Virus record (IMG/VR): IMGVR_UViG_3300020048_000009
Coordinates: 96,001-160,000 of that record
Source of the DNA: a virus
Lineage: Duplodnaviria; Caudoviricetes
Direction: 5' to 3' (one strand)
DNA: 64,000 bases
Shown piece by piece: positions 2,072-61,521 of this stretch; the first letter of the stretch is position 1, and the number at the start of each line of letters is the position of its first letter. A program made the position numbers and the translations under genes. The notes below the pieces were generated by a model. The model saw nothing but the letters and a program-made list of their open reading frames with translations, made no database searches and was not told where the DNA came from.

Positions 2072-2770
2072 TTAATATGTATGAAAATTCTAGAATATTA
2101 GAACCTAATGAAGAAGTAAAGAAAGGTGATTTAATTCTATTAGTAGGTAAGAGTTGGATTATTGCAATAGATACACCAGTTAAATATTTAGCTAAAGATT
2201 TTATAGAAGTAAGAAGAAGGAAAGAAGAGGTTTAAAGATTATGGTAGTAGTTGATATTGAATGTTTATTACATGTGGTGACATTATCGGAATTGTCATTA
2301 GTTTGTCCTATTGTTATGGAAAAATTTAGGAGTAATGATAAGTATTTCCATATCGATCAATATGTCAGAGAGAATGGTGCAACTGTATGTATAGATTTAA
2401 ATGAATGGTGGAATGTTTTACCTGGGAAAGAGAAGGTAGATATTATAAGTACTTTCCATAGAGAATATAGACAGAGGCAAAAGGATTGTGAATATTCTGC
2501 GGATCAATTGTTTGAATATTGTTATGATATTAAAGACTAGGAGAATATAGATATGTTATCAGAAGAACAATTAGAAGCTTTAAAGGATTTAAGAGATGCA
2601 GGTATCATGGATCACGGTACGATTTCTGATTGTGGTGAAGCGTGCAACTGTCCTGCTTCTAATTTTATGTCTAAAGAAAGATGTGAATGTGGAGCAGATG
2701 AACATAATGAGCATCTTAATAGGGTTTATGATAATGTTCTGAAAATACTTACTGCTAAAGAAGTCTAGAT

Positions 2771-17816: not shown

Positions 17817-18278
17817 ATGAAAAAGATTTTAGATGAATCAAAAGGCCAATGGGTAGCAGTCAAAAAGTTTAAAGATGTACAAGATGGCCAATTTATTAGG
17901 TACGTCTATGGTGATGGTGATAAATGTGGATATTCTGATAATGATAGAAGGGTTCTTCGCCTTAATGATGATGGCACCTTTGATACATTAATAAATGGTG
18001 AAAGTAATGCCGTTGGTGTATATAACTTCTTTAAGTTTTTTAACAACCTGGTTGTTGTGGAAGCCTTTATTGAATTTACTTTGGTGAATAAAACAGTAAA
18101 AGTATACATTGACGACTGTATGAATGGTAAGGGTTTTTGTTTTGAAGTAAAATTTGCATCCAAGATAGATACAATGACATGTTCAGGGAGTTATACCCTT
18201 AGGAGTTCTGCTATTAGAGCGGCTAAACGTTTTTGTGAAGATTTGGGTTTTAAATGTGAAATTGTAAAAGCAAAGTAA
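17817..18278 (+). CDS. Hypothetical, paralog of 8128
   Basis: KGQWVAVK...YTLRSSAIRAAKRFCEDLG. Confidence 0.75.
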   Translation: MKKILDESKGQWVAVKKFKDVQDGQFIRYVYGDGDKCGYSDNDRRVLRLNDDGTFDTLINGESNAVGVYNFFKFFNNLVVVEAFIEFTLVNKTVKVYIDDCMNGKGFCFEVKFASKIDTMTCSGSYTLRSSAIRAAKRFCEDLGFKCEIVKAK

Positions 18279-18292
18279 GAGGGAATTATATT

Positions 18293-19198
18293 ATGGGTTA
18301 CGCACATATTGAAAATTTATATAAGAATACATTGATTCTTCAGTTTAAGAAATGTTATGAGATGGAAAAGACTCATGGAACATCTGCACATATCAAGAGA
18401 AATAAAGACGGAACTATTACTTTTTCTTCAGGTGGAGCATCACATAATGTTTTCGTAAGTCTTTTTAATGAAGAGGAACTTAAAGCAAAGTTTATTGAAC
18501 ATTTCGGTGGTGTTAGTACTGTTACAATATATGGTGAAGCTTATGGTGGTAAGGAACAAGGAATGCGCCTTACTTATGGTGATAAGTTATGCTTTATTGT
18601 TTTTGATATTTCTGTTACCAATGATGACAAAGAACTTTGGCTAGATGTTCCAGTTGCTGCAGATTTTGCAGCTAAGATGGGATTAGAATTTACACCATAT
18701 TCAGAAATTGAAGCGACACTTGAGAATATCAATGCTGCTAGAGATAAACCCTCAGAGGTTGCCGTTCGTAGAGGATGTGGAAATAACGTAGATAAGTTTG
18801 GTTTTAATCCTCCTATTAGAGAGGGTACTGTACTTCGTCCTCTAATCCAAGTGGTTGATATGTATGGAAACCGTATTGTTTCTAAGCATAAAAGAGATGA
18901 ATTTTCTGAGAGAGCTCAAACCCCTAAAGTAGAAGATGCTGCTAAAATTAAGGTTTTAGAGGAAGCAACAGCTATCGCAGAGGAATGGGTTACTCCAATG
19001 CGTCTTGAGCATGTTCTTGATAAAATGGGGAACACTAGAGATTTGCAGAAAATTCCTCAGCTTATCGTGGCGATGATTGAAGATGTATACCGTGAAGGTA
19101 AGGGCGAAATTGTAGAAAATAAAGATGTAGAAAAAGCTATCGGCAAGAAGGCGGTTCATCTTTTCAAAACATTGGTGAAGACAGAAAATCTTAAGTAA
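18293..19198 (+). CDS. RNA ligase, Rnl2-like family
   Basis: Motif I EKTHGTS, YGEAYG, FIVFDI, REGTVLRP, VSKHK. Confidence 0.82.
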   Translation: MGYAHIENLYKNTLILQFKKCYEMEKTHGTSAHIKRNKDGTITFSSGGASHNVFVSLFNEEELKAKFIEHFGGVSTVTIYGEAYGGKEQGMRLTYGDKLCFIVFDISVTNDDKELWLDVPVAADFAAKMGLEFTPYSEIEATLENINAARDKPSEVAVRRGCGNNVDKFGFNPPIREGTVLRPLIQVVDMYGNRIVSKHKRDEFSERAQTPKVEDAAKIKVLEEATAIAEEWVTPMRLEHVLDKMGNTRDLQKIPQLIVAMIEDVYREGKGEIVENKDVEKAIGKKAVHLFKTLVKTENLK

Positions 19199-41809: not shown

Positions 41810-42355
41810 ATGAAAAATGATAAGAAAACAATAGTTGTAAATCTCTACGGTGGACCGGGTTCTGGTAAGTCTACCCTTATGGCGAGTATATTTTCAGAAT
41901 TAAAGCTTAATGGAATTAATTGTGAGATGGCACCTGAATTTGCTAAAGAAAAGGTATGGGAAGGTTCGTTAGATATTTTAGCAAATCAACTTTATATTTT
42001 TGGAAAACAGCATCACACTATTTTTAGACTTTTGGGTAAAGTGGATGTAATTATAACGGATTCACCTATTATTCTATCTTTATACTACGGAAAGAATTGT
42101 AGTAATACATTTAAGAAATTAGTATTAGAGGAATATGCTAAATTAAATAATATTAATTTTTTTGTAGACAGAATTAAGAAGTATAATCCAAAGGGAAGAC
42201 TTCAAACAGAGTCTGAAGCAAAACAAATTGATAAAGAACTTTTATCAATTTTAAGTAAAAACAATATACATGCCGTTCATGTAGAAGGCGGACGAAAAAA
42301 CATTAAATGGATATCTAAAAGTATAATAGATATTATTAAAAAGGAAATAATATGA
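41810..42355 (+). CDS. NadR/Ttd14-type AAA (AAA_28-like) P-loop kinase
   Basis: NLYGGPGSGKST, PEFAKE, ITDSP; 4-nt overlap with thg1. Confidence 0.78.
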   Translation: MKNDKKTIVVNLYGGPGSGKSTLMASIFSELKLNGINCEMAPEFAKEKVWEGSLDILANQLYIFGKQHHTIFRLLGKVDVIITDSPIILSLYYGKNCSNTFKKLVLEEYAKLNNINFFVDRIKKYNPKGRLQTESEAKQIDKELLSILSKNNIHAVHVEGGRKNIKWISKSIIDIIKKEII

Positions 42356-43134
42356 ACAAGGATTCACTAGGCGATCGCATGAAAAATTTTGAGTCAGTAA
42401 CCGCAACAAAACTAATTAGTAGAATGCCCGTAATTTTACGGCTTGATGGTAAAGCATTCCACACATTTACCAAGGGTTTTGATAAACCTTTTGATACTCT
42501 ACTATCAGATACGATGATTGAAACTACACTTGAATTAGTTTCAACTATTCAAAACTGTCAAGTTGGATATGTTCAATCAGATGAAATTTCATTACTTCTT
42601 GTAGATGATAAGCACCTTAATACTTCTTCTTGGTTTGATAATAAGATTCAGAAGCAAGTATCGGTTGCGGCATCGATGTGTACTTTAACTTTTAATACTA
42701 TTTTTCTATCAAAAGTTATATCCCTATCAAAAGTAGAAGATATGACAGAAGAAATGTTTAAAAAAGTTGATATGTATAATGGTAAAATTTGTTCTGCGCT
42801 TTTTGATTGTAGAGCTTTTAATATTCCAAAAGAAGATGTATGTAACTATTTTATCTGGAGACAGCAAGATGCAACTAGAAATTCTATTCAATCTCTAGCA
42901 CAAGCTAATTTTAGTCCTAAACAACTACATGGCCTAAGTTGCAATAAGCTTCAGGATAAACTTTTCGCAGAAAAGCAAATTAATTGGAATGATATTTCTA
43001 CAACAAATAAAAGAGGAACATGTGCAGTAAGAAATTTTAAAAATGGACCTGCTTTTATTATTGATCGTGAAATTCCTATCTTTTCTCAAGATAGAACGTA
43101 TATCGAAAAGCTTGTTAATATTAGAGAGGATTAA
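42352..43134 (+). CDS. thg1: tRNA(His) guanylyltransferase/Thg1-like protein
   Basis: LGDRMK.FE, RLDGKAFHTFT, YVQSDEISL, FD.RAFN.P, YF.WRQ.DA.RNS. Confidence 0.93.
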   Translation: MNKDSLGDRMKNFESVTATKLISRMPVILRLDGKAFHTFTKGFDKPFDTLLSDTMIETTLELVSTIQNCQVGYVQSDEISLLLVDDKHLNTSSWFDNKIQKQVSVAASMCTLTFNTIFLSKVISLSKVEDMTEEMFKKVDMYNGKICSALFDCRAFNIPKEDVCNYFIWRQQDATRNSIQSLAQANFSPKQLHGLSCNKLQDKLFAEKQINWNDISTTNKRGTCAVRNFKNGPAFIIDREIPIFSQDRTYIEKLVNIRED

Positions 43135-43540
43135 TTATGTCTGATGGTGATTATGCTTTTCCATTTGACCCAGAATCAGAAAAACGTCGAATGAAACAAT
43201 TAGAAATTAATCAAAAATTTTTATTAGATGCAATTTTTGAAATTCATGATAATCTGTGTCCTAAACAATACGGAACATGGCAAGATAAAGTTAAACAATC
43301 AGTTGAAGCTTCTAAAAAATTAAAAAAGGATTAAAATGGACGCAAAATTAGAAATAACATATTTGGATGATAATACTGGACATGAAAGAACTATTACATT
43401 AAATACTATAACATGTTCAGAAGAATTTTATAATGATGTTAATGCGGTTTTAAAAGATAAACCTGTTACATGTAGATTAGCATTGCGATAATTTTATAAT
43501 TATTAATAAATAAAATAGAATATTCATAAGGAGAAAATAA

Positions 43541-43585
43541 ATGAATAACGATAAAGTTAAATGTTAGGTGCTTAAACCACCATAA
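43541..43585 (+). CDS. Leader mini-ORF with internal amber codon and Pro-Pro-stop end
   Basis: AAGGAG SD 43528-43533; ATG AAT AAC GAT AAA GTT AAA TGT TAG GTG CTT AAA CCA CCA TAA. Confidence 0.7.
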
Positions 43586-43646
43586 TCCTATTAGTGTTGA
43601 AAAATGACTGATTAATGTAAAAAACAAACAAACTAATAAGGATTAT
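43582..43646 (+). promoter_or_regulatory. Anti-SD/SD helix (putative translational attenuator)
   Basis: ATAATCCTATTAGT (43582-43595) is complementary to ACTAATAAGGATTAT (43632-43646; one bulge), which holds the AAGGA SD of ORF 43651. Confidence 0.65.
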
Positions 43647-43650
43647 AAAA

Positions 43651-43953
43651 ATGAGAAAAATAGACGAATTAAAGTTAAAGAATAAAGAAACAAGTAAACA
43701 ACTTAGAGAAAGAAATCTCAAGTTAAAAGAGAACCAGAAGCAAGGTAAATGTTGTAGTAATGAAATGTGTTCATTGTATTATGCTAGAAAAGAATATAGA
43801 CATTATCACATTGCCTATTGTGAGTTAAGAGGTAGAACTAGGGATCAGATTGAAAAACCTAGACGTGGTAATGAAGTAAACGAACAGCTTATTCAAAATA
43901 TTAAAAATGAATATGCATGGGAAATTCTCGATACTGGAGCAAACAATGAATAA
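43651..43953 (+). CDS. Hypothetical basic protein in the amber module
   Basis: Charged helical N-terminus; RHYHIAYCELRGRT..QIE.P; overlaps the Pth2-like start by 8 nt. Confidence 0.8.
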   Translation: MRKIDELKLKNKETSKQLRERNLKLKENQKQGKCCSNEMCSLYYARKEYRHYHIAYCELRGRTRDQIEKPRRGNEVNEQLIQNIKNEYAWEILDTGANNE

Positions 43954-44242
43954 ATTATATGTTTTAGTGAGAAAAGATTTATCTACATCTTATCAAGCGG
44001 TTCAAGCTGGTCATGCTGTGGCGGAATGGTTACTTCAAAACCATTAGGGTTCCGAATGGAAAAATAATACATTAATATATTTAGGTGTAAAAGATTTAGA
44101 TGATCTTAATCACTGGATGGAAAAACTTAAATATAAAAATATAGAATTTTCAGCATTTAAAGAACCTGATATTGGAAATGAAATAACAGCAATCGCATGT
44201 TTAAATGATGGTAAATTATTTTCCAGTCTTAGATTATTATAA
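43946..44242 (+). CDS. pth2: Pth2-like peptidyl-tRNA hydrolase with in-frame TAG at codon 34 (44045-44047)
   Basis: GGAG SD; KLYVLVRKDL...QAVQAGHAVAEW before the TAG and W.N.TLIYL...F.EPDIGNE.TAIA after it, same frame, ending TAA 44240-44242; missed by ORF track. Confidence 0.82.
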
Positions 44243-44245
44243 AAC

Positions 44246-44322
44246 GGCACTATAGCTCAGTGGTTAGAGCGGGAATCTCTAAAATTCTGTCCGCATGGGT
44301 TCGAATCCCATTAGAGCCGCCA
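44246..44322 (+). tRNA. Amber-suppressor tRNA (anticodon CUA)
   Basis: Acceptor GGCACTA/TAGAGCC (A:A at pair 4), D-arm GCTC/GAGC, anticodon arm GGAAT-CT CTA AA-ATTCT, T-arm ATGGG-TTCGAAT-CCCAT, G discriminator, encoded CCA. Confidence 0.9.
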
Positions 44323-44366
44323 AATTTATATAAGTTCCACTCCAGTGGAAAAAGTTAAACAAAAAG

Positions 44367-44400
44367 AAAAAGTTAAGGTATATTTTACCTTAACTTTTTT
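44367..44400 (+). terminator. Hairpin terminator after the tRNA, overlapping the next promoter (44378-44407)
   Basis: AAAAAGTTAAGGTA-TATTT-TACCTTAACTTTTTT. Confidence 0.75.
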
Positions 44401-50797: not shown

Positions 50798-51014
50798 AAC
50801 CAAGTATAAAAGTCGTAGAAATCTATGCCGATGCAGCAGAATCTTTTAGACATGATCAAGGTATTGATCTTGAAAAAGAAACGTATAATGAATTGGTTAG
50901 GAATTGTGAAGTACCAGAAGGTACACAAATAGAATGGAAATATTATACATATGATCCATTAAGTACAACACCAAATAAGAAAATTTACTTAAAAACAAAA
51001 TAGGAATAAAAATC

Positions 51015-52169
51015 ATGTTAAAATTACAAACATTACTTCAATCAATGCCCTTTGAAAAGGCAAAAGAAATACTTTCACTTCCGCCTTATAGTTTTAAGGT
51101 TCAAGAAAATGATCATTATGTTTTATTTGCATATAATCAAATTGAAACAGATATGTCTTTACCTGAAGCTATTGAAGCTCGTGGTATTATTTTTGAAAAA
51201 AATGCAGACTTTACACCTGTTTGTGTTCCGTTCTTTAAGTTCTGGAACTATGGTGAATCCAAAGCTTCTGTTTTAGACCATTCTTCTCTTTCTATTTATG
51301 AAAAAGTAGACGGTTCTCTTATTAAGATTTGGTGGTCAAATATTTATGATAAGTGGGTTATTTCTACAAATAATACACTAGATGCATATACTGCAGGTCT
51401 TGGTGATAATCCGCATTTTAATAATTTCGGTGAATTAGTAGAAGATATTTTAAAACAAAAGGGTATTATTAATTTCGAAACCGATGCTAATTTTAGCAAG
51501 GGTAATACCTATATGTTTGAATTAACTTCTATTTATAATAAAGTTGTTATTCGCCATGTTAAATCTGATTTAACATTTTTGGGTTATAGAGATAATTCAA
51601 CGCTTCAAGAATTTGAACCCTATGATATTTATCTTAATAACGAAATTGTTCTAAATAAAGTTAAGAAGTATCCCTTAATGTCTATAGATGATATTCTTAA
51701 GGCTTGTGAAATTATGCATGGTGAACAAGAAGGCTTTGTTCTTGTAGATAAAAACTTTAATAGAGTTAAAGTTAAGTCTCCTTTCTATGTTACATTACAT
51801 CACGCTAAAGATAATGGCCAATTTACTTCTGAAAAGGCTATTAGAATTATTCAAATAAATGAAGTAGATGAATTTTTAACATACTTCCCTGAATTTAAGC
51901 CTTTCTTTGATGAAATAATTGTTTTAGTAGATGATTATGTTTCAGATATGGCACAATGTTTATGTATTGTTTTAGATGGTGTTGAATTTTTATCTAGAAA
52001 AGATATTGCGTTACAACTTAAATCACATAAAGCAGCCTGGTATGGTTTTATGGTTTTAGATAAAATTCTTAAACATGAAGTATATCAAATGCCAAGAGAT
52101 TGTTTTGAAAAGATGGATTCATCCAGAGCAGCAAAGTTTATAGGAGAAAAGTCAATTAAAGTGGCTTAA
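51015..52169 (+). CDS. rnlA: RNA ligase 1 (T4 Rnl1-like)
   Basis: EARG..F, F.KFWN, YEKVDGSLI, YMFEL, EGFV, RVKVKS. Confidence 0.85.
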   Translation: MLKLQTLLQSMPFEKAKEILSLPPYSFKVQENDHYVLFAYNQIETDMSLPEAIEARGIIFEKNADFTPVCVPFFKFWNYGESKASVLDHSSLSIYEKVDGSLIKIWWSNIYDKWVISTNNTLDAYTAGLGDNPHFNNFGELVEDILKQKGIINFETDANFSKGNTYMFELTSIYNKVVIRHVKSDLTFLGYRDNSTLQEFEPYDIYLNNEIVLNKVKKYPLMSIDDILKACEIMHGEQEGFVLVDKNFNRVKVKSPFYVTLHHAKDNGQFTSEKAIRIIQINEVDEFLTYFPEFKPFFDEIIVLVDDYVSDMAQCLCIVLDGVEFLSRKDIALQLKSHKAAWYGFMVLDKILKHEVYQMPRDCFEKMDSSRAAKFIGEKSIKVA

Positions 52170-57088: not shown

Positions 57089-57586
57089 ATCATCATTAAG
57101 TATTTATTAAGGAGAACATATGTTAATGATTATTGGTTGGTATTTTATTGGTTTAATTGGAATAACGTCATTTTTATGGCTTTTAGACGAATTACCGTCT
57201 TTAAACCAAATTATGGTAAAAGATATACTTACGGTATGTTTTTTTAGTTCATTTGGACTATTCGTATTTGCAGGTCATATATTATATTTTATTATATTTT
57301 TAGTTATTACTATTCAACCGATTTTAAATACAAAAATTGTTGATATTTTTAAAAGAAAGACAAAATAATATGAAAATTAAAACAATATATGATATTAAAC
57401 CATTATGGTTGAGAAGAGTTTGTGTGATATTTTTAGGTGTTCCATGCCTTATATTTATAATGTTTGGTACAGCCTGTTGTGAATGCTGTTCAGGTGTTAG
57501 GCAATTTATTAAAATATGGAAAAATGAAGTTTAAAATATAAAACAAGAATTAATGACTTATGCAACACTAACGGAGGTAAATTAAC

Positions 57587-58765
57587 ATGAGAAATCTAGC
57601 ATCTATACAGACAGTTGATAAAATTATTGAAATTCCTAAAGCGAATACTATTGAATTAGTTACATTTAAAAATGTGGCTTGGCAATGTGTCGCTAAAAAA
57701 GGTGAATTTGTACCTGGTGGTTTATGCGTTTATTTTGAAATCGATTCTCTTTTACCCAAAGAAAATACAGCTTTTGCTTTCATGGAAGCTCGTAAATTCA
57801 GAGTTAAAACCGTAAAATTCATGACTGAATATTTATCACAGGGTCTTGCGTTACCTATTTCAGCTTTTCCCGAGCTTGATATTGAAAAAATGGCAGATGG
57901 TTTAGACGTTACAGAAGTATTAAAAATCACCAAGTATGAAAATGATGCAGGTGATGATGAAGAAGCTGTAGAAGAAATGTCTAAAAATAGAAAGAAATAT
58001 GGAAAATTTAGAAATCTATTAATGAAGTATAAAATTGGTAGATTTATTGTTCGTACCTTTATCGGTAATAAACCTACTGGTAATTTTCCTACACACCTTT
58101 GTGCCAAAACCGATGAAACACGTATTCAAAATCTAGTTTCTTTATTTGAAAAGGCGAAGGGTATTGAATTCATTATATCTGAAAAATTAGAAGGTCAATC
58201 TGGTACATATATTCTACAAAAAGGTAAATTCTTTAGAAAAAATACCTTTTATGTATGTAGTAGAAATAATTGCTATCCGACAAAGATTCCTAATAACTTC
58301 TGGTATATTGCAGATAAGTATAAAATCCAAGAAATACTTGAAAGTCTTATGAGAAGTTTTAAGGATGCAACACATATAACACTACAAGGCGAAATTGTAG
58401 GACCAAAAGTTCAGAAAAATATCTATAAATTAGAAGATCTAGAGTTTTATGCGTTCAATATAGTTGTAACCTTTAAAAATGGCGATGTTACAGCTTTTAA
58501 CCCTAAATTTATAAAAGCCTTACTAGAAATAGTATATGAACATACAGTAAAGGCGGAAAATAAAATTACACATTGTCCTATTTTAGGTACATGTATCTTA
58601 GGTGTCACACCTGGATATAGAACAGTTGAAGAAATTTTACAATCTGCTGAAGGATGTTCAACTCTTTTCAATACACATAGAGAAGGATTAGTTCTTAGAA
58701 ACATGGGAATGCATTATTCTTTCAAAGCCGTATCAAATGCATATCTATTAAAACGCGGCTACTAA
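57587..58765 (+). CDS. RNA ligase, DRB0094-like family
   Basis: MR.LASIQ, CVYFEIDS, KTDETRIQN, EKLEGQS, QGE..GP..QKN.Y, REG.V, SFKA.SN.YLL. Confidence 0.88.
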   Translation: MRNLASIQTVDKIIEIPKANTIELVTFKNVAWQCVAKKGEFVPGGLCVYFEIDSLLPKENTAFAFMEARKFRVKTVKFMTEYLSQGLALPISAFPELDIEKMADGLDVTEVLKITKYENDAGDDEEAVEEMSKNRKKYGKFRNLLMKYKIGRFIVRTFIGNKPTGNFPTHLCAKTDETRIQNLVSLFEKAKGIEFIISEKLEGQSGTYILQKGKFFRKNTFYVCSRNNCYPTKIPNNFWYIADKYKIQEILESLMRSFKDATHITLQGEIVGPKVQKNIYKLEDLEFYAFNIVVTFKNGDVTAFNPKFIKALLEIVYEHTVKAENKITHCPILGTCILGVTPGYRTVEEILQSAEGCSTLFNTHREGLVLRNMGMHYSFKAVSNAYLLKRGY

Positions 58766-60330
58766 AATTGTATCTGTAGCAGATACAATATGGAGCAAAT
58801 ATGATAGATAAACATATATATATTGAAGGTTGGAGAGATTGGCCAAAAGAATCTTTTGGTGGATGGGCGCCTGGAAATTATGAGTATTCTATTATTTGTA
58901 GAAAATGTAATGGTAGTTACGTTGGAAGCAAATATTCATACCATTGTTATCCATGCGCATTGAAACAATATGAAGAAGATATTCAAAAGAATTTAGGAAG
59001 CGGAATATGAAAATTAATATTAATAATAGATGTAAAGTTATTCTTACAGAAAATGCTCTTGAATCATTATGTTTTAGTAAAGATGAAATTAAAAGACTTA
59101 ATAAAGATACAAGAGAATATACCGATGAATTATGGTCTTTAATGAACACTTTTGGTGAATATTTTAAAGCAGCTGGCGATAACCAAATATTTGAAAATAA
59201 TGAAATAGAAATTATAGAAGGTACATAATGAGGGCTAAGTTATATTTAGTTCCAGATAATGCATTTTAAGGAGTGGTAAAAATTATGAAAATTAAAATAA
59301 GAGATTATGGCCAAAATGGAAAAGAAATTTCTATTAAAGTAAAAAATAATGGAAAAACTTCTACTAAAAAGTTTTATTATACTCCCTCACAATTTGGTTC
59401 ATCGGAAAGTTTTGAGGCTAAATCTAATACAAAGACTCCTATTTTTGTATTACTTAATATGTTATTAGAAGATATTGGACAAAAAGATGCATTACAAGTA
59501 TCCAAAGAACAAATTAAAGCCAAAAAAGAAGCAGAAAAGGCTCGTGAACATAGAATTAATGAAACAGTAAAAGCATTTAAAGCTATGTGTAAAAAAGAAT
59601 TGAAAGATAGAAAAGCCAAAGGTTTATGTAATGCAATATTATATCATGGACCAGGACATCAATCTAAAACATTTTGTGAATGCAAAGGTCCACATAAAAA
59701 ACATAAATGTAATTTTGGTAGATATGATGAAACAGAAGAATGGACAGGAATGAAGGGATATGCAGGGTATTAATATGAACCTAAATAAAGGACAATATGA
59801 ATAAATTATCAAATTATCATTTTGGTGCCGTAAGAAAAGTTCCAAAATGTAATGAAAATAGAATAGTTATAAGTACCTATTATCCATTATGTTTAGGTGA
59901 AGATTATACACATATATATAATCCACCTGATGATTATTTGTGTATGCATCCTACAGATTGGAATATGGTATTTTGTGAGAAATGTTTAGCCCTTAAAAAA
60001 CAACAAGAGGAAGTAAAATGAAATTTAATGATATAAATGTTGGACAAGTTTTTATAACAAATTTATTACCAGTAGATATTGCGAATAAATGCGGGGTAAT
60101 TTGTATAGAAAAACAACAAACACCCAATAAGCTCATTATGAAAAGAATGAATTCAGATGAACAATGGATGATTTTTGCAGATAAGACCACTGATGAATGT
60201 AATATGGGAAATTGGATTAAAAAAGATTAATATAGCAAAGATGCATTAATTGGTGTATAGATGTTGAAATATTGTATAATGTATTTATACAAATGGATAT
60301 ACCATTTATCATATCAGAGGAATATAAAAA

Positions 60331-61521
60331 ATGAAAACAGTAATTGGAAAGTATAATGAAGCAAAAATTTTTGCAACAACAGTTGAAGCTTCATGTGAAC
60401 AGCAAATTTTAGATTTATGTAATGAGTCTTGGGCGCAGGATTGTAATATCCGTATTATGCCTGATTGCCATTCTGGAAAGGGATGTGTAATCGGTACTAC
60501 TATGACAATCAAAGATAAGATCGTACCCAATTTGGTAGGCGTAGATATTGGCTGCGGTATGCTTACTACTAAGTTCAGAGCATTAAAGCTTGATTTAAAG
60601 CAAGTTGATAGAACAATTAAGCAGGAAATTCCTATGGGTAGAAATATTCATAACGAAGCTCTTGTTGATTTTTCGCCTGAATTGAATAAGCTTTGGGCCG
60701 TTAAAAAGGAAATAGGTTTTGATAAGGTTTCTAGAAGTCTTGGTTCTTTGGGTGGTGGAAATCACTTCATTGAAATCGGAAAAGACGAAGATGATTGTTA
60801 TTATCTAGTTATCCATAGCGGTTCAAGAAACTTTGGTAAGAAGGTAGCTGAATACTATCAGGGTAAAGCTGTTGATTATCATAAACTTCTTACAGGTGAT
60901 GCTAGAAAGGCTTTTATTGAACAATTAAAGTCAGAAGGTCGTCAAGATGAAATTAAAGATGCTTTAATTAAATATAATGAGCAGTATAATACTGATTTGT
61001 GTTATTTAGAGGGCGCATTATTTAATTCATATTTAAACGATATGAAAATTGCTCAGAAGTTTGCTTCTTTAAACAGATATACTATCGCTAATATTTTATG
61101 TAAGGCTTTTCAGGTTGGACCAATAGAACAATTTGAAACAGTTCATAACTATATTGATACTGATAATATGATTCTAAGAAAAGGCGCAATTTCAGCTCAA
61201 AAGGATGAAAAGTGTTTAATCCCTATTAATATGAGAGATGGTTCTTTATTATGTGTCGGTAAGGGTAATGTTGATTTTAACTATTCTGCTCCTCATGGTG
61301 CAGGACGTTTAATGTCACGTACTAAGGCTAGACACGAGTTATCATTAGATGAGTTTAAGGATACAATGTCTAATGTATATTCATCTACTGTTGGAATGTC
61401 AACACTTGATGAAGCGCCTATGGCATATAAGCCAATAGCAGAAATCTTAGAAAATATTAAAGATACTGTTGATGTTATAACACAGATTAAACCTATTTAT
61501 AACGTTAAAGCAGAAGAGTAA
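60331..61521 (+). CDS. rtcB: RtcB RNA 3'-phosphate/5'-OH ligase
   Basis: MPD.H.G.G..IG, VGVDIGCG, LGGGNHF, HSGSR, HNY, HGAGR, DEAP.AYK. Confidence 0.95.
   Translation: MKTVIGKYNEAKIFATTVEASCEQQILDLCNESWAQDCNIRIMPDCHSGKGCVIGTTMTIKDKIVPNLVGVDIGCGMLTTKFRALKLDLKQVDRTIKQEIPMGRNIHNEALVDFSPELNKLWAVKKEIGFDKVSRSLGSLGGGNHFIEIGKDEDDCYYLVIHSGSRNFGKKVAEYYQGKAVDYHKLLTGDARKAFIEQLKSEGRQDEIKDALIKYNEQYNTDLCYLEGALFNSYLNDMKIAQKFASLNRYTIANILCKAFQVGPIEQFETVHNYIDTDNMILRKGAISAQKDEKCLIPINMRDGSLLCVGKGNVDFNYSAPHGAGRLMSRTKARHELSLDEFKDTMSNVYSSTVGMSTLDEAPMAYKPIAEILENIKDTVDVITQIKPIYNVKAEE

What the first reader, a model, noticed from the sequence alone, without database searches (positions are those of the whole stretch)
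43946..44242. Pth2-like hydrolase interrupted by one in-frame TAG
Family-like motifs lie on both sides of the TAG in the same frame (VRKDL..QAVQAGHA before; W.N.TLIYL and EPD.G.E.TAIA after). The 98-codon total fits a Pth2-size protein, and there is no other sign of decay. The ORF track missed it. Full-length protein requires suppression, and the inserted residue is unknown.
Basis: partly seen in the sequence, partly recalled or inferred. Interest (0 to 1): 0.78.

Follow-up and report, generated by a model that had tools for sequence, protein, structure and literature searches.

The report
Stop-codon-gated hydrolase gene with own suppressor tRNA
A small tRNA-hydrolase-like gene of a large freshwater phage really does carry a stop codon (TAG) in its middle, and the very next gene is a tRNA that reads TAG, so the gene is probably made only when that tRNA works; the same gene-tRNA pair, with a TAG-containing sensor in front, recurs in dozens of large phages and gives their puzzling "suppressor" tRNAs a first conserved target.

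Summary
Window 43946-44242 (+) is a 98-codon PTH2-fold gene with one in-frame TAG (44045-47, codon 34). An independent lake metagenome also carries the TAG, so it is not an assembly error.

The genome (211.7 kb in hand, 29.8% GC) uses the standard code. This is its only suppressor tRNA and its only convincing TAG-interrupted gene.

In 82 of 90 related phage loci, a suppressor tRNA lies beside the homologous gene. Internal TAGs recur in this gene at four or more independent points of its tree, but hardly at all in neighbouring genes.

Upstream lies a conserved leader mini-ORF of the form M..TAG..Pro-Pro-stop (43541-43585). Its end abuts a hairpin that hides the ribosome-binding site of a conserved 100-aa gene, which is translationally coupled to the PTH2-like gene.

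Best reading: an amber-gated cassette whose proteins are made only when its own tRNA suppresses UAG. The enzyme's substrate, the inserted residue (Gln in the nearest relative) and any feedback role are unproven; nothing here is experimental.

This scan has found the same cassette before on other DNA (notes from 18 or more genomes). I found no published description.

The parts
43493..43521 (+). possible promoter (TTTATA-17-TAGAAT)
   Evidence: Consensus scan only, 9 of 12 matches, and no more frequent than in shuffles. Weak.
43529..43534 (+). Shine-Dalgarno (AAGGAG) of the leader mini-ORF
   Evidence: Read from the sequence. Leaders in relatives also have an SD.
43541..43585 (+). amber-containing leader mini-ORF: MNNDKVKC-TAG(43565-67)-VLKPP-TAA
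   Evidence: Read from the sequence. The same design, M-x(1-10)-TAG-[V/I]...Pro-Pro-stop, occurs in 47 of 75 unique related loci. There are 63 TAG-type mini-ORFs against 7 TAA-type and 4 TGA-type. It is unchanged in the independent strain X2.
43582..43646 (+). hairpin: the 5' arm 43582-43598 starts at the leader's TAA; the 3' arm 43627-43646 holds the AAGGA SD (43638-42) of the next gene
   Evidence: The MFE of the 171-nt region is -20.3 kcal/mol, z=-2.5. SD sequestration by the ~20 nt after the leader stop occurs in 28 of 41 unique relatives, against 15.1 +/- 3.2 in shuffles. Stem sequences differ between loci. X2 differs only in the loop.
43651..43953 (+). conserved 100-aa protein of unknown function (core motif RH.HIAYC.LRGR..QIE)
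   Evidence: It lies directly upstream on the same strand in at least 27 of 77 unique loci. The model is a confident helical hairpin, pLDDT 90. No Pfam, PHROG or fold match. Both differences from X2 are synonymous.
43946..44242 (+). PTH2-fold gene, 98 codons, in-frame TAG at 44045-44047 (codon 34); its start overlaps the upstream gene's stop by 8 nt (ATGAATAA)
   Evidence: The TAG lies in the variable surface loop between helix 1 and strand 2, the lowest-pLDDT block.
44246..44322 (+). tRNA with anticodon CUA (amber suppressor), CCA encoded
   Evidence: ARAGORN. Rfam tRNA RF00005 at 61.2 bits, E=2.6e-12. It is the only suppressor among the genome's 25 tRNAs; the other 24 are clustered 47 kb away.
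44366..44400 (+). intrinsic terminator-like hairpin with a T run
   Evidence: 15-bp stem followed by a T run.

Best explanation
The TAG is a real, translated codon in a working gene. The gene belongs to a four-part cassette carried on one transcript: an amber-containing leader with a hairpin, a 100-aa protein, the PTH2-fold protein, and a tRNA(CUA), followed by a terminator.

Proposed mechanism:
1. Transcription yields the tRNA whatever happens to translation.
2. A ribosome on the leader that terminates at UAG (43565) stops about 15 nt short of the hairpin. The ribosome-binding site of the 100-aa gene therefore stays paired.
3. If tRNA(CUA) reads the UAG, the ribosome goes on five codons to Pro-Pro-UAA. 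There it sits on the 5' arm of the hairpin and frees that site.
4. The 100-aa gene is then translated and, through the 8-nt overlap, so is the PTH2-like gene.
5. In this phage the PTH2-like gene needs a second read-through at codon 34.

The two proteins would thus be made only when, and roughly as much as, UAG suppression is active.

Shown: the anatomy, that the TAG is real, the conservation and recurrence, and the fold.

Inferred: read-through by this tRNA, ribosome-driven opening of the hairpin, and co-transcription.

The internal TAG arose recently from CAG (Gln). It may act as a second gate, or it may be a change this gene alone can tolerate because it is only needed when the suppressor works.
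For: - Cognate tRNA: a tRNA(CUA) starts 4 nt downstream.
- Conserved pairing: 82 of 90 IMG/VR loci have a suppressor tRNA within the flank held (79 CUA), on the same strand and mostly immediately downstream. 14 of 19 MAG contigs replicate this. So do the cultured Acinetobacter phage ME3 and the Lak phages.
- Standard code: in G000 TAG ends 31 of 312 crude genes, and reading TAG as sense gives no gain in ORF length. The same holds for the whole genomes G001 and G004.
- The TAG is gene-specific: across about 4,000 homology-supported codons in each of three genomes, the only credible HSPs that span a TAG are this gene. Family-wide there are 2.55 TAG per 1000 codons against 0.83 in neighbours, p=4e-4.
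- Independent origins: nine internal TAGs are scattered on the tree, and at least 4 changes are forced. All nine keep the invariant E-P-D...T-A motif downstream.
- The TAG is real: it is kept in an independent strain, and all 4 substitutions in the two genes are synonymous.
- Origin of the TAG: the nearest relative, at 95% identity, has Gln at codon 34.
- Leader: enriched 63 to 7 to 4 for TAG, TAA and TGA types. The SD hairpin exceeds shuffles. The leader occurs only with a tRNA-CUA, 45 of 64 against 0 of 11 loci, p=1e-5.
- Fold: PTH2 fold confirmed.
Against: - Nothing is experimental. Expression, processing and charging of the tRNA, read-through, stalling and enzyme activity are all untested.
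- Internal TAGs sit only at tips of the tree, and each has a close TAG-less relative. This fits short-lived, tolerated mutations as well as it fits a selected gate.
- Most family members have no internal TAG.
- TAG still ends about 10% of this phage's genes, so an efficient suppressor should be costly.
- The Lys of the Pth2 'GKGK' loop aligns with a non-conserved Tyr, so canonical Pth2 chemistry is not assured.
- The locus statistics are not corrected for shared ancestry.
- The genome record is estimated to be 84% complete.
Confidence: 0.7

Rival explanations
1. The gene is a pseudogene. A recent CAG-to-TAG nonsense mutation killed it, and its position next to the tRNA has no bearing on its expression.
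For: Internal TAGs occur only at tips of the family tree, next to intact relatives. The 95%-identical relative is intact. Most homologs have no TAG.
Against: - There is only one lesion.
- Both substitutions downstream of the TAG in an independent strain are synonymous.
- The same kind of lesion recurs at least 4 times independently in this gene, yet is about 3-fold rarer in neighbouring genes.
- All nine TAG-bearing copies keep the invariant downstream motifs and have no frameshifts.
- The matching suppressor tRNA lies 4 nt away.
Confidence: 0.12
2. The phage reads TAG as a sense codon in general (genetic code 15, as in Lak and crAss-like phages), and this gene is just one of many recoded genes.
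For: The genome has low GC (29.8%), prefers TAA stops (254 of 312) and carries a suppressor tRNA. These are the precursors of recoding named by Borges et al. (bioRxiv 10.1101/2021.08.26.457843). 16% of the genome may be missing.
Against: - Reading TAG as sense gives no more ORF length than the TGA control.
- TAG ends 31 crude genes.
- No other convincing TAG-spanning gene turned up in 211 kb.
- The genome encodes no release factor and no Gln/Glu-tRNA synthetase.
Confidence: 0.04
3. The TAG is an assembly or sequencing error for CAG.
For: It is a single-base difference from the nearest relative.
Against: Contigs from three runs in two studies carry TAG. One is a diverged strain with other SNPs nearby.
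Confidence: 0.02
4. The protein is made in two pieces or from an internal restart: a 33-aa N-terminal peptide, plus a C-terminal piece starting at ATG 44117.
For: An in-frame ATG lies at 44117.
Against: A restart there would drop strand 2 and the invariant W38 and N40 from a compact single-domain fold. No SD was noted there. Homologs are single chains.
Confidence: 0.03

Closest known systems
Archaeal/eukaryotic peptidyl-tRNA hydrolase Pth2 (Pfam PF01981; PDB 2zv3, 1xty, 1q7s, 3erj, 1wn2)
   Same: It has the same alpha/beta fold (TM 0.74-0.81), a profile match, and shares the R-x-D-L and Q-x-G-H-A motifs plus an acidic residue before the last strand.
   Different: It is shorter (98 against about 115 aa). 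The 'GKGK' loop is shortened and its Lys aligns with Tyr/Gln. 'E-P-D' replaces the 'D-A-G' motif. The family is restricted to phages and tied to a suppressor tRNA. Activity is untested.
Stop-codon-recoded phages with suppressor tRNAs (code 15, TAG to Gln; Borges et al., bioRxiv 10.1101/2021.08.26.457843; Peters et al., PMC9523058)
   Same: A phage-encoded tRNA(CUA), low GC, a preference for TAA stops, and an in-frame TAG that needs the tRNA.
   Different: The code here is standard. Only the cassette itself carries TAGs. In recoded phages the code-change genes are written in the standard code and late genes carry the TAGs. That preprint does not contain the word 'hydrolase'.
Leader-peptide translational attenuation (ermC/cat type; secM-secA)
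   Same: A short SD-led leader ORF, a hairpin that hides the next gene's SD, and a ribosome held at the leader's end that would open it. The ending is Pro-Pro-stop; from memory, C-terminal proline slows termination (Hayes et al. 2002).
   Different: The input would be read-through of a stop codon by a tRNA encoded on the same transcript, not a drug or a secretion signal.
prfB (RF2) autoregulation through an in-frame UGA
   Same: An in-frame stop inside a translation-factor gene lets the cell measure how that stop is decoded.
   Different: prfB uses a +1 frameshift and senses a release factor. Here the route is read-through by a tRNA, and it is unknown whether the product acts back on decoding.
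Synthetic suppressor-tRNA feed-forward 'leak dampener' (Ho et al., PMC7969014)
   Same: One signal drives both a suppressor tRNA and a gene that carries nonsense codons, so output needs both.
   Different: That circuit is engineered. This one is natural, sits on one transcript, and adds a leader sensor.
Orphan suppressor tRNAs of standard-code phages (XacN1, PMC5852040; Summit, PMC9022506)
   Same: A tRNA(CUA) in a phage that uses the standard code.
   Different: Those papers report that no target gene could be identified. Here a target lies next to the tRNA.

Membership tests
Pth2 (PF01981) | Sequence match above Pfam's gathering score | tested here: met
   24.2 bits against a cut-off of 23, E=4e-5. 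Marginal. 48 of 120 relatives match, and none matches any other family.
Pth2 (PF01981) | Pth2 alpha/beta fold | tested here: met
   Model pLDDT 94.4, pTM 0.87. The top 15 Foldseek hits are all Pth2 structures, TM 0.74-0.81, followed by a sharp drop.
Pth2 (PF01981) | Catalytic residues (from memory: the Lys of the GKGK loop and the Asp of the DAG motif) | tested here: inconclusive
   The Lys aligns with the non-conserved Y16. E73, P74 and T81 are invariant, D75 is nearly invariant, and H23 and Q20 are invariant. The source paper is not held.
Pth2 (PF01981) | Hydrolysis of peptidyl-tRNA | not testable with these tools
   Needs an enzyme assay.
TAG-recoded phage (genetic code 15) | Many genes with in-frame TAG; coding density rises when TAG is read as sense | tested here: not met
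TAG-recoded phage (genetic code 15) | Phage-encoded suppressor tRNA(CUA) | tested here: met
TAG-recoded phage (genetic code 15) | TAG no longer used as a terminator | tested here: not met
   31 of 312 crude genes end in TAG.
Pyrrolysine system | PylS present and a pylT-type tRNA | tested here: not met
   No PylS in the genome. The tRNA fits the general tRNA model at 61 bits with a normal cloverleaf. ARAGORN's 'tRNA-Pyl' is only its label for a CUA anticodon.
Leader-peptide translational attenuator | SD-led mini-ORF whose end abuts a hairpin that pairs the downstream SD | tested here: met
   Conserved in relatives beyond shuffles.
Leader-peptide translational attenuator | Ribosome arrest at the leader's end that opens the hairpin | not testable with these tools
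   Pro-Pro-stop is conserved, with varying third codon positions. Arrest itself needs toeprinting.
Amber-gated PTH2 / suppressor-tRNA cassette (this scan's earlier notes) | PTH2-like gene beside a tRNA(CUA), with UAG in the gene and/or its leader | tested here: met

The most novel reading that the evidence does not exclude
The cassette is a homeostat for genetic-code ambiguity. The leader measures how often UAG is read through in the infected cell. The PTH2-fold enzyme, perhaps with the 100-aa helical protein, then hydrolyses the charged or peptidyl form of the suppressor tRNA. This would hold read-through at a set level in a phage that still ends a tenth of its own genes in TAG. It would be a natural closed-loop controller of stop-codon meaning, and a stepping stone to full recoding.
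Probability: 0.2. Interest if true: 0.9.

Novelty: new variant of a known kind. Interest (0 to 1): 0.8.

Why it matters
Large phages that use the standard code often carry suppressor tRNAs, and published work states that no target could be found for them (PMC5852040, PMC9022506). This cassette supplies a conserved, adjacent target and a plausible sensing device. The question [quoted passage not shown] can therefore be tested directly with reporters, toeprints and an enzyme assay.

It also shows a state between the standard and the recoded genetic code. And it offers a compact natural part (tRNA plus sensor plus gated gene) of the kind synthetic biologists have had to build themselves.

For annotation, these genes are routinely split, or started after the TAG, as in the deposited record of phage ME3.

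Tried and rejected
- Complex prediction: I tested the 100-aa protein against the PTH2-like protein, using the intact 95%-identical relative P0001 residues 12-109 because a sequence with X is not accepted. It gave no verdict. This is no evidence either way.
- Co-variation of stop type with anticodon (a lead from earlier notes): my set has only three non-CUA loci plus the Lak loci. They show no matching in-frame stop and no PP-type leader. The claim cannot be tested here, although the amber leader is absent from those loci.
- Amino-acid identity of the tRNA: it resembles no particular tRNA of the phage. Acceptor and discriminator features vary among the 59 cassette tRNAs.
- Other TAG-split genes in the genome: two same-frame ORF pairs have an ATG just after the TAG and no homologs. 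Unresolved; treated as separate genes.
- Function of the 100-aa protein: nothing from Pfam, PHROGs, the ESM Atlas or Foldseek/PDB. The likeness to the helical arm of SerRS is not significant.
- Other RNA families near the tRNA, such as ribozymes: none found.
- Base after the TAG: a purine in 15 of 18 in-frame TAGs against 21 of 31 genuine stops, which is not distinctive.
- DNA of the closest relative P0001 could not be fetched.
- My first neighbour control was contaminated by wrong-frame matches, so I replaced it.
- The 6-kb flanks alone could not tell whether relatives are recoded. Two whole genomes settled it.

Full report
**1. The observation**

Window 43946-44242 (+) translates as 33 residues, a TAG (44045-47, codon 34), 64 more residues and then TAA, all in one frame. 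The ORF list holds only fragments of 46 and 41 aa, which explains why an ORF track missed the gene.

With X at the break, the protein matches Pfam PTH2 at E=4e-5 and 24.2 bits, against a cut-off of 23. More than 200 intact proteins of 95-100 aa align across the TAG position. The closest, P0001, is 95% identical and has Gln there, so the TAG is one transition away from CAG.

The start at 43946 has a GGAG 7 nt upstream, and it overlaps the stop of the upstream gene by 8 nt (ATGAATAA).

**2. The TAG is real**

Contigs of an independent lake-water run from another study (X2; 12-kb contig, depth 13.7), and of a second sample from the source study (X3), keep the TAG.

X2 is a slightly different strain. 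It has four substitutions inside the two cassette genes, and all four are synonymous. Two of them (44053 and 44194) lie downstream of the TAG. Its one change in the tRNA turns an A-U pair of the T stem into G-U, and its two indels lie in the loop of the leader hairpin.

**3.

A tRNA with anticodon CUA starts 4 nt after the gene's stop (44246-44322). ARAGORN finds it, and Rfam's tRNA model scores it at 61.2 bits. A terminator-like hairpin follows at 44366-44400.

ARAGORN's label 'tRNA-Pyl' only names the anticodon. The genome has no PylS.

**4. Genome context**

The window lies in a single 211,678-bp virus record with 29.8% GC, estimated at 84% complete. It has 25 tRNAs: 24 are clustered 47 kb away, and this one, the only suppressor, stands alone.

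The code is standard. Reading TAG as sense lengthens ORFs no more than reading TGA as sense does. TAG ends 31 of 312 crudely called genes.

A codon-usage scan for ORFs continuing through a TAG found this gene and three other candidates:
- Two are same-frame neighbours that have their own ATG just after the TAG and no homologs.
- One is a low-complexity reverse frame.

No release factor and no Gln/Glu-tRNA synthetase is encoded.

The window is rich in tRNA/RNA-repair genes: a Thg1-like gene, RtcB and three RNA ligases.

**5. The gene-tRNA pair is conserved**

Among 90 IMG/VR loci with a homolog, 82 hold a suppressor tRNA within the 3-kb flanks. Of these, 79 are CUA, 2 UUA and 1 UCA. They lie on the same strand, nearly always downstream, and often 4-20 nt after the stop. 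CUA is by far the commonest anticodon in these loci.

An independent set of 19 MAG contigs replicates this in 14 of 19. These contigs are probably mis-binned large phages, to judge by their lengths and scattered taxon labels.

In the cultured Acinetobacter phage ME3, the homolog reads ATG-ACA-TAG before the conserved domain, and a tRNA-CTA lies 450 nt upstream. Lak megaphages have a UUA tRNA 600-700 nt upstream.

**6. TAGs recur in this gene and not around it**

Internal TAGs occur in 9 of 75 distinct copies.
- Six lie in the same variable loop as here: G000, L029, L033, L038, L050 and L089.
- Three lie elsewhere: L037, L044 and L054.

A deep clade of more distant members has a TAG two to five codons after the only ATG.

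On the family tree, the nine internal TAGs need nine changes, and well-supported branches force at least four. Each TAG-bearing copy has a TAG-less close relative.

Counting only TAGs spanned by a single diverged alignment, this gene has 2.55 per 1000 codons against 0.83 in neighbouring genes, Fisher p=4e-4. A first, cruder control was contaminated by wrong-frame matches.

Two relatives with an internal TAG were fetched whole (273 kb and 223 kb). Both use the standard code, with TAG at 16-22% of stops. Each has a single tRNA-CUA directly after the gene. Across about 4,000 homology-supported codons per genome, the only credible alignments that span a TAG are this gene, in all three genomes and at different codons.

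All nine TAG-bearing copies keep the invariant downstream motifs and have no frameshift.

**7. A conserved amber leader**

I followed a lead from other first-stage notes on the same stretch and read the sequence upstream. It holds:
- an SD (AAGGAG);
- an ATG at 43541, followed by seven codons;
- a TAG at 43565;
- five codons ending Pro-Pro;
- a TAA at 43583.

A hairpin begins at that TAA. Its 5' arm is 43582-43598. Its 3' arm, 43627-43646, contains the AAGGA SD of the 100-aa gene that starts at 43651 (z=-2.5).

A ribosome with UAG in its A site should reach to about 43578 and leave the hairpin closed. With UAA in the A site it should cover most of the 5' arm. This geometry rests on the usual +15/16 toeprint, which I recall from memory.

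In 75 distinct related loci, SD-led mini-ORFs of this design number 63 with TAG as the first stop, against 7 with TAA and 4 with TGA, although TAG is the rarest of the three trinucleotides there. 47 loci have one, with the consensus M-x-TAG-[V/I]-x-x-Pro-Pro-stop. The proline codons vary at their third positions.

The SD of the next gene pairs with the ~20 nt after the leader stop in 28 of 41 distinct segments, against 15.1 +/- 3.2 (maximum 21) in shuffles that keep the stop and the SD. The stem sequences differ from locus to locus.

The leader is found only where a tRNA-CUA is present: 45 of 64 loci against 0 of 11, p=1e-5, not corrected for ancestry.

**8. The proteins**

The PTH2-like protein gives a confident model (pLDDT 94.4, pTM 0.87). 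Codon 34 lies in its least confident surface loop. The best 15 structural matches are all Pth2 proteins, at TM 0.74-0.81, and the family profile finds Pth2 chains by sequence.

Q20, G22, H23, W38, N40, E73, P74 and T81 are invariant. The Lys of the Pth2 'GKGK' loop aligns with a non-conserved Tyr, so the chemistry may differ.

The 100-aa protein lies directly upstream in at least 27 of 77 loci. It models as a helical hairpin with pLDDT 90 and has no family or fold match. A complex prediction gave no verdict.

**9. Reading**

The most economical account is a cassette that expresses its two proteins only when its own tRNA reads UAG. The leader acts as the sensor. In this phage, a second UAG inside the hydrolase-like gene adds a further requirement.

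The tips-only distribution of internal TAGs leaves two possibilities open. That second UAG may be selected, or it may merely be tolerated because the gene matters only when suppression is on. Either way, the gene's use is tied to the tRNA.

The enzyme's function remains inference. It could trim suppression back, clear by-products of read-through, or do something else.

**10. Novelty**

In the searchable library, no paper holds 'suppressor tRNA', 'PTH2' and 'phage' together. Related searches found only reports that phage suppressor tRNAs lack known targets, the recoding model of Borges et al., and a synthetic feed-forward circuit.

This scan's own earlier notes describe the same cassette in at least 18 other genomes. 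They agree with what I tested here but are not independent evidence.

Noticed in passing
window 18260-19198, 42352-43134, 50979-52169, 57581-58765, 60328-61521: Dense set of tRNA/RNA-repair genes: three RNA ligases, an RtcB tRNA-splicing ligase and a Thg1-like tRNA-His guanylyltransferase. This suggests heavy investment against host tRNA-cutting defences.
   Followed up: partly
genome 83394-93081 (before the window): Cluster of 24 tRNAs that includes unusual anticodons as ARAGORN calls them: Phe(AAA), Ser(ACT) and Ile(TAT).
   Followed up: no
L028 (Acinetobacter phage vB_AbaM_ME3, KU935715) about 2470-2803: The homolog reads ATG-ACA-TAG before the conserved domain, and a tRNA-CTA lies 450 nt upstream. 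The deposited CDS ME3_195 starts after the TAG. This gives a cultured system for experiments.
   Followed up: partly
L126-L144 (MAG contigs): Contigs of up to 499 kb, labelled Thermoplasmatota, Pacearchaeota, Planctomycetaceae, Methanobacterium and others, carry the phage cassette. They are probably large phage contigs binned into cellular MAGs.
   Followed up: no
L013 3001-3186; L067 3001-3240: These copies match only residues 36-98 or 18-98 of the protein. They are broken or shifted at the N terminus, yet still lie beside a tRNA-CUA.
   Followed up: no
window 44264-44265: The contigs of independent run X2 break inside the tRNA, and a minor contig lacks one base at 44264 in the D-loop. This points to strain heterogeneity in the suppressor tRNA.
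   Followed up: no
window 2241-2765; genome 68789-69370 (L020 790-1371): Two pairs of same-frame ORFs are separated only by a TAG. Each has an ATG a few codons after the TAG and no homologs among phage records.
   Followed up: partly
L003 about 2621-2700 and similar loci (L001, L004, L006): Some leaders carry two TAGs in a row of short segments. In L003, for example, reading past the second TAG ends in Pro-Pro-TGA. These may be multi-step sensors.
   Followed up: no
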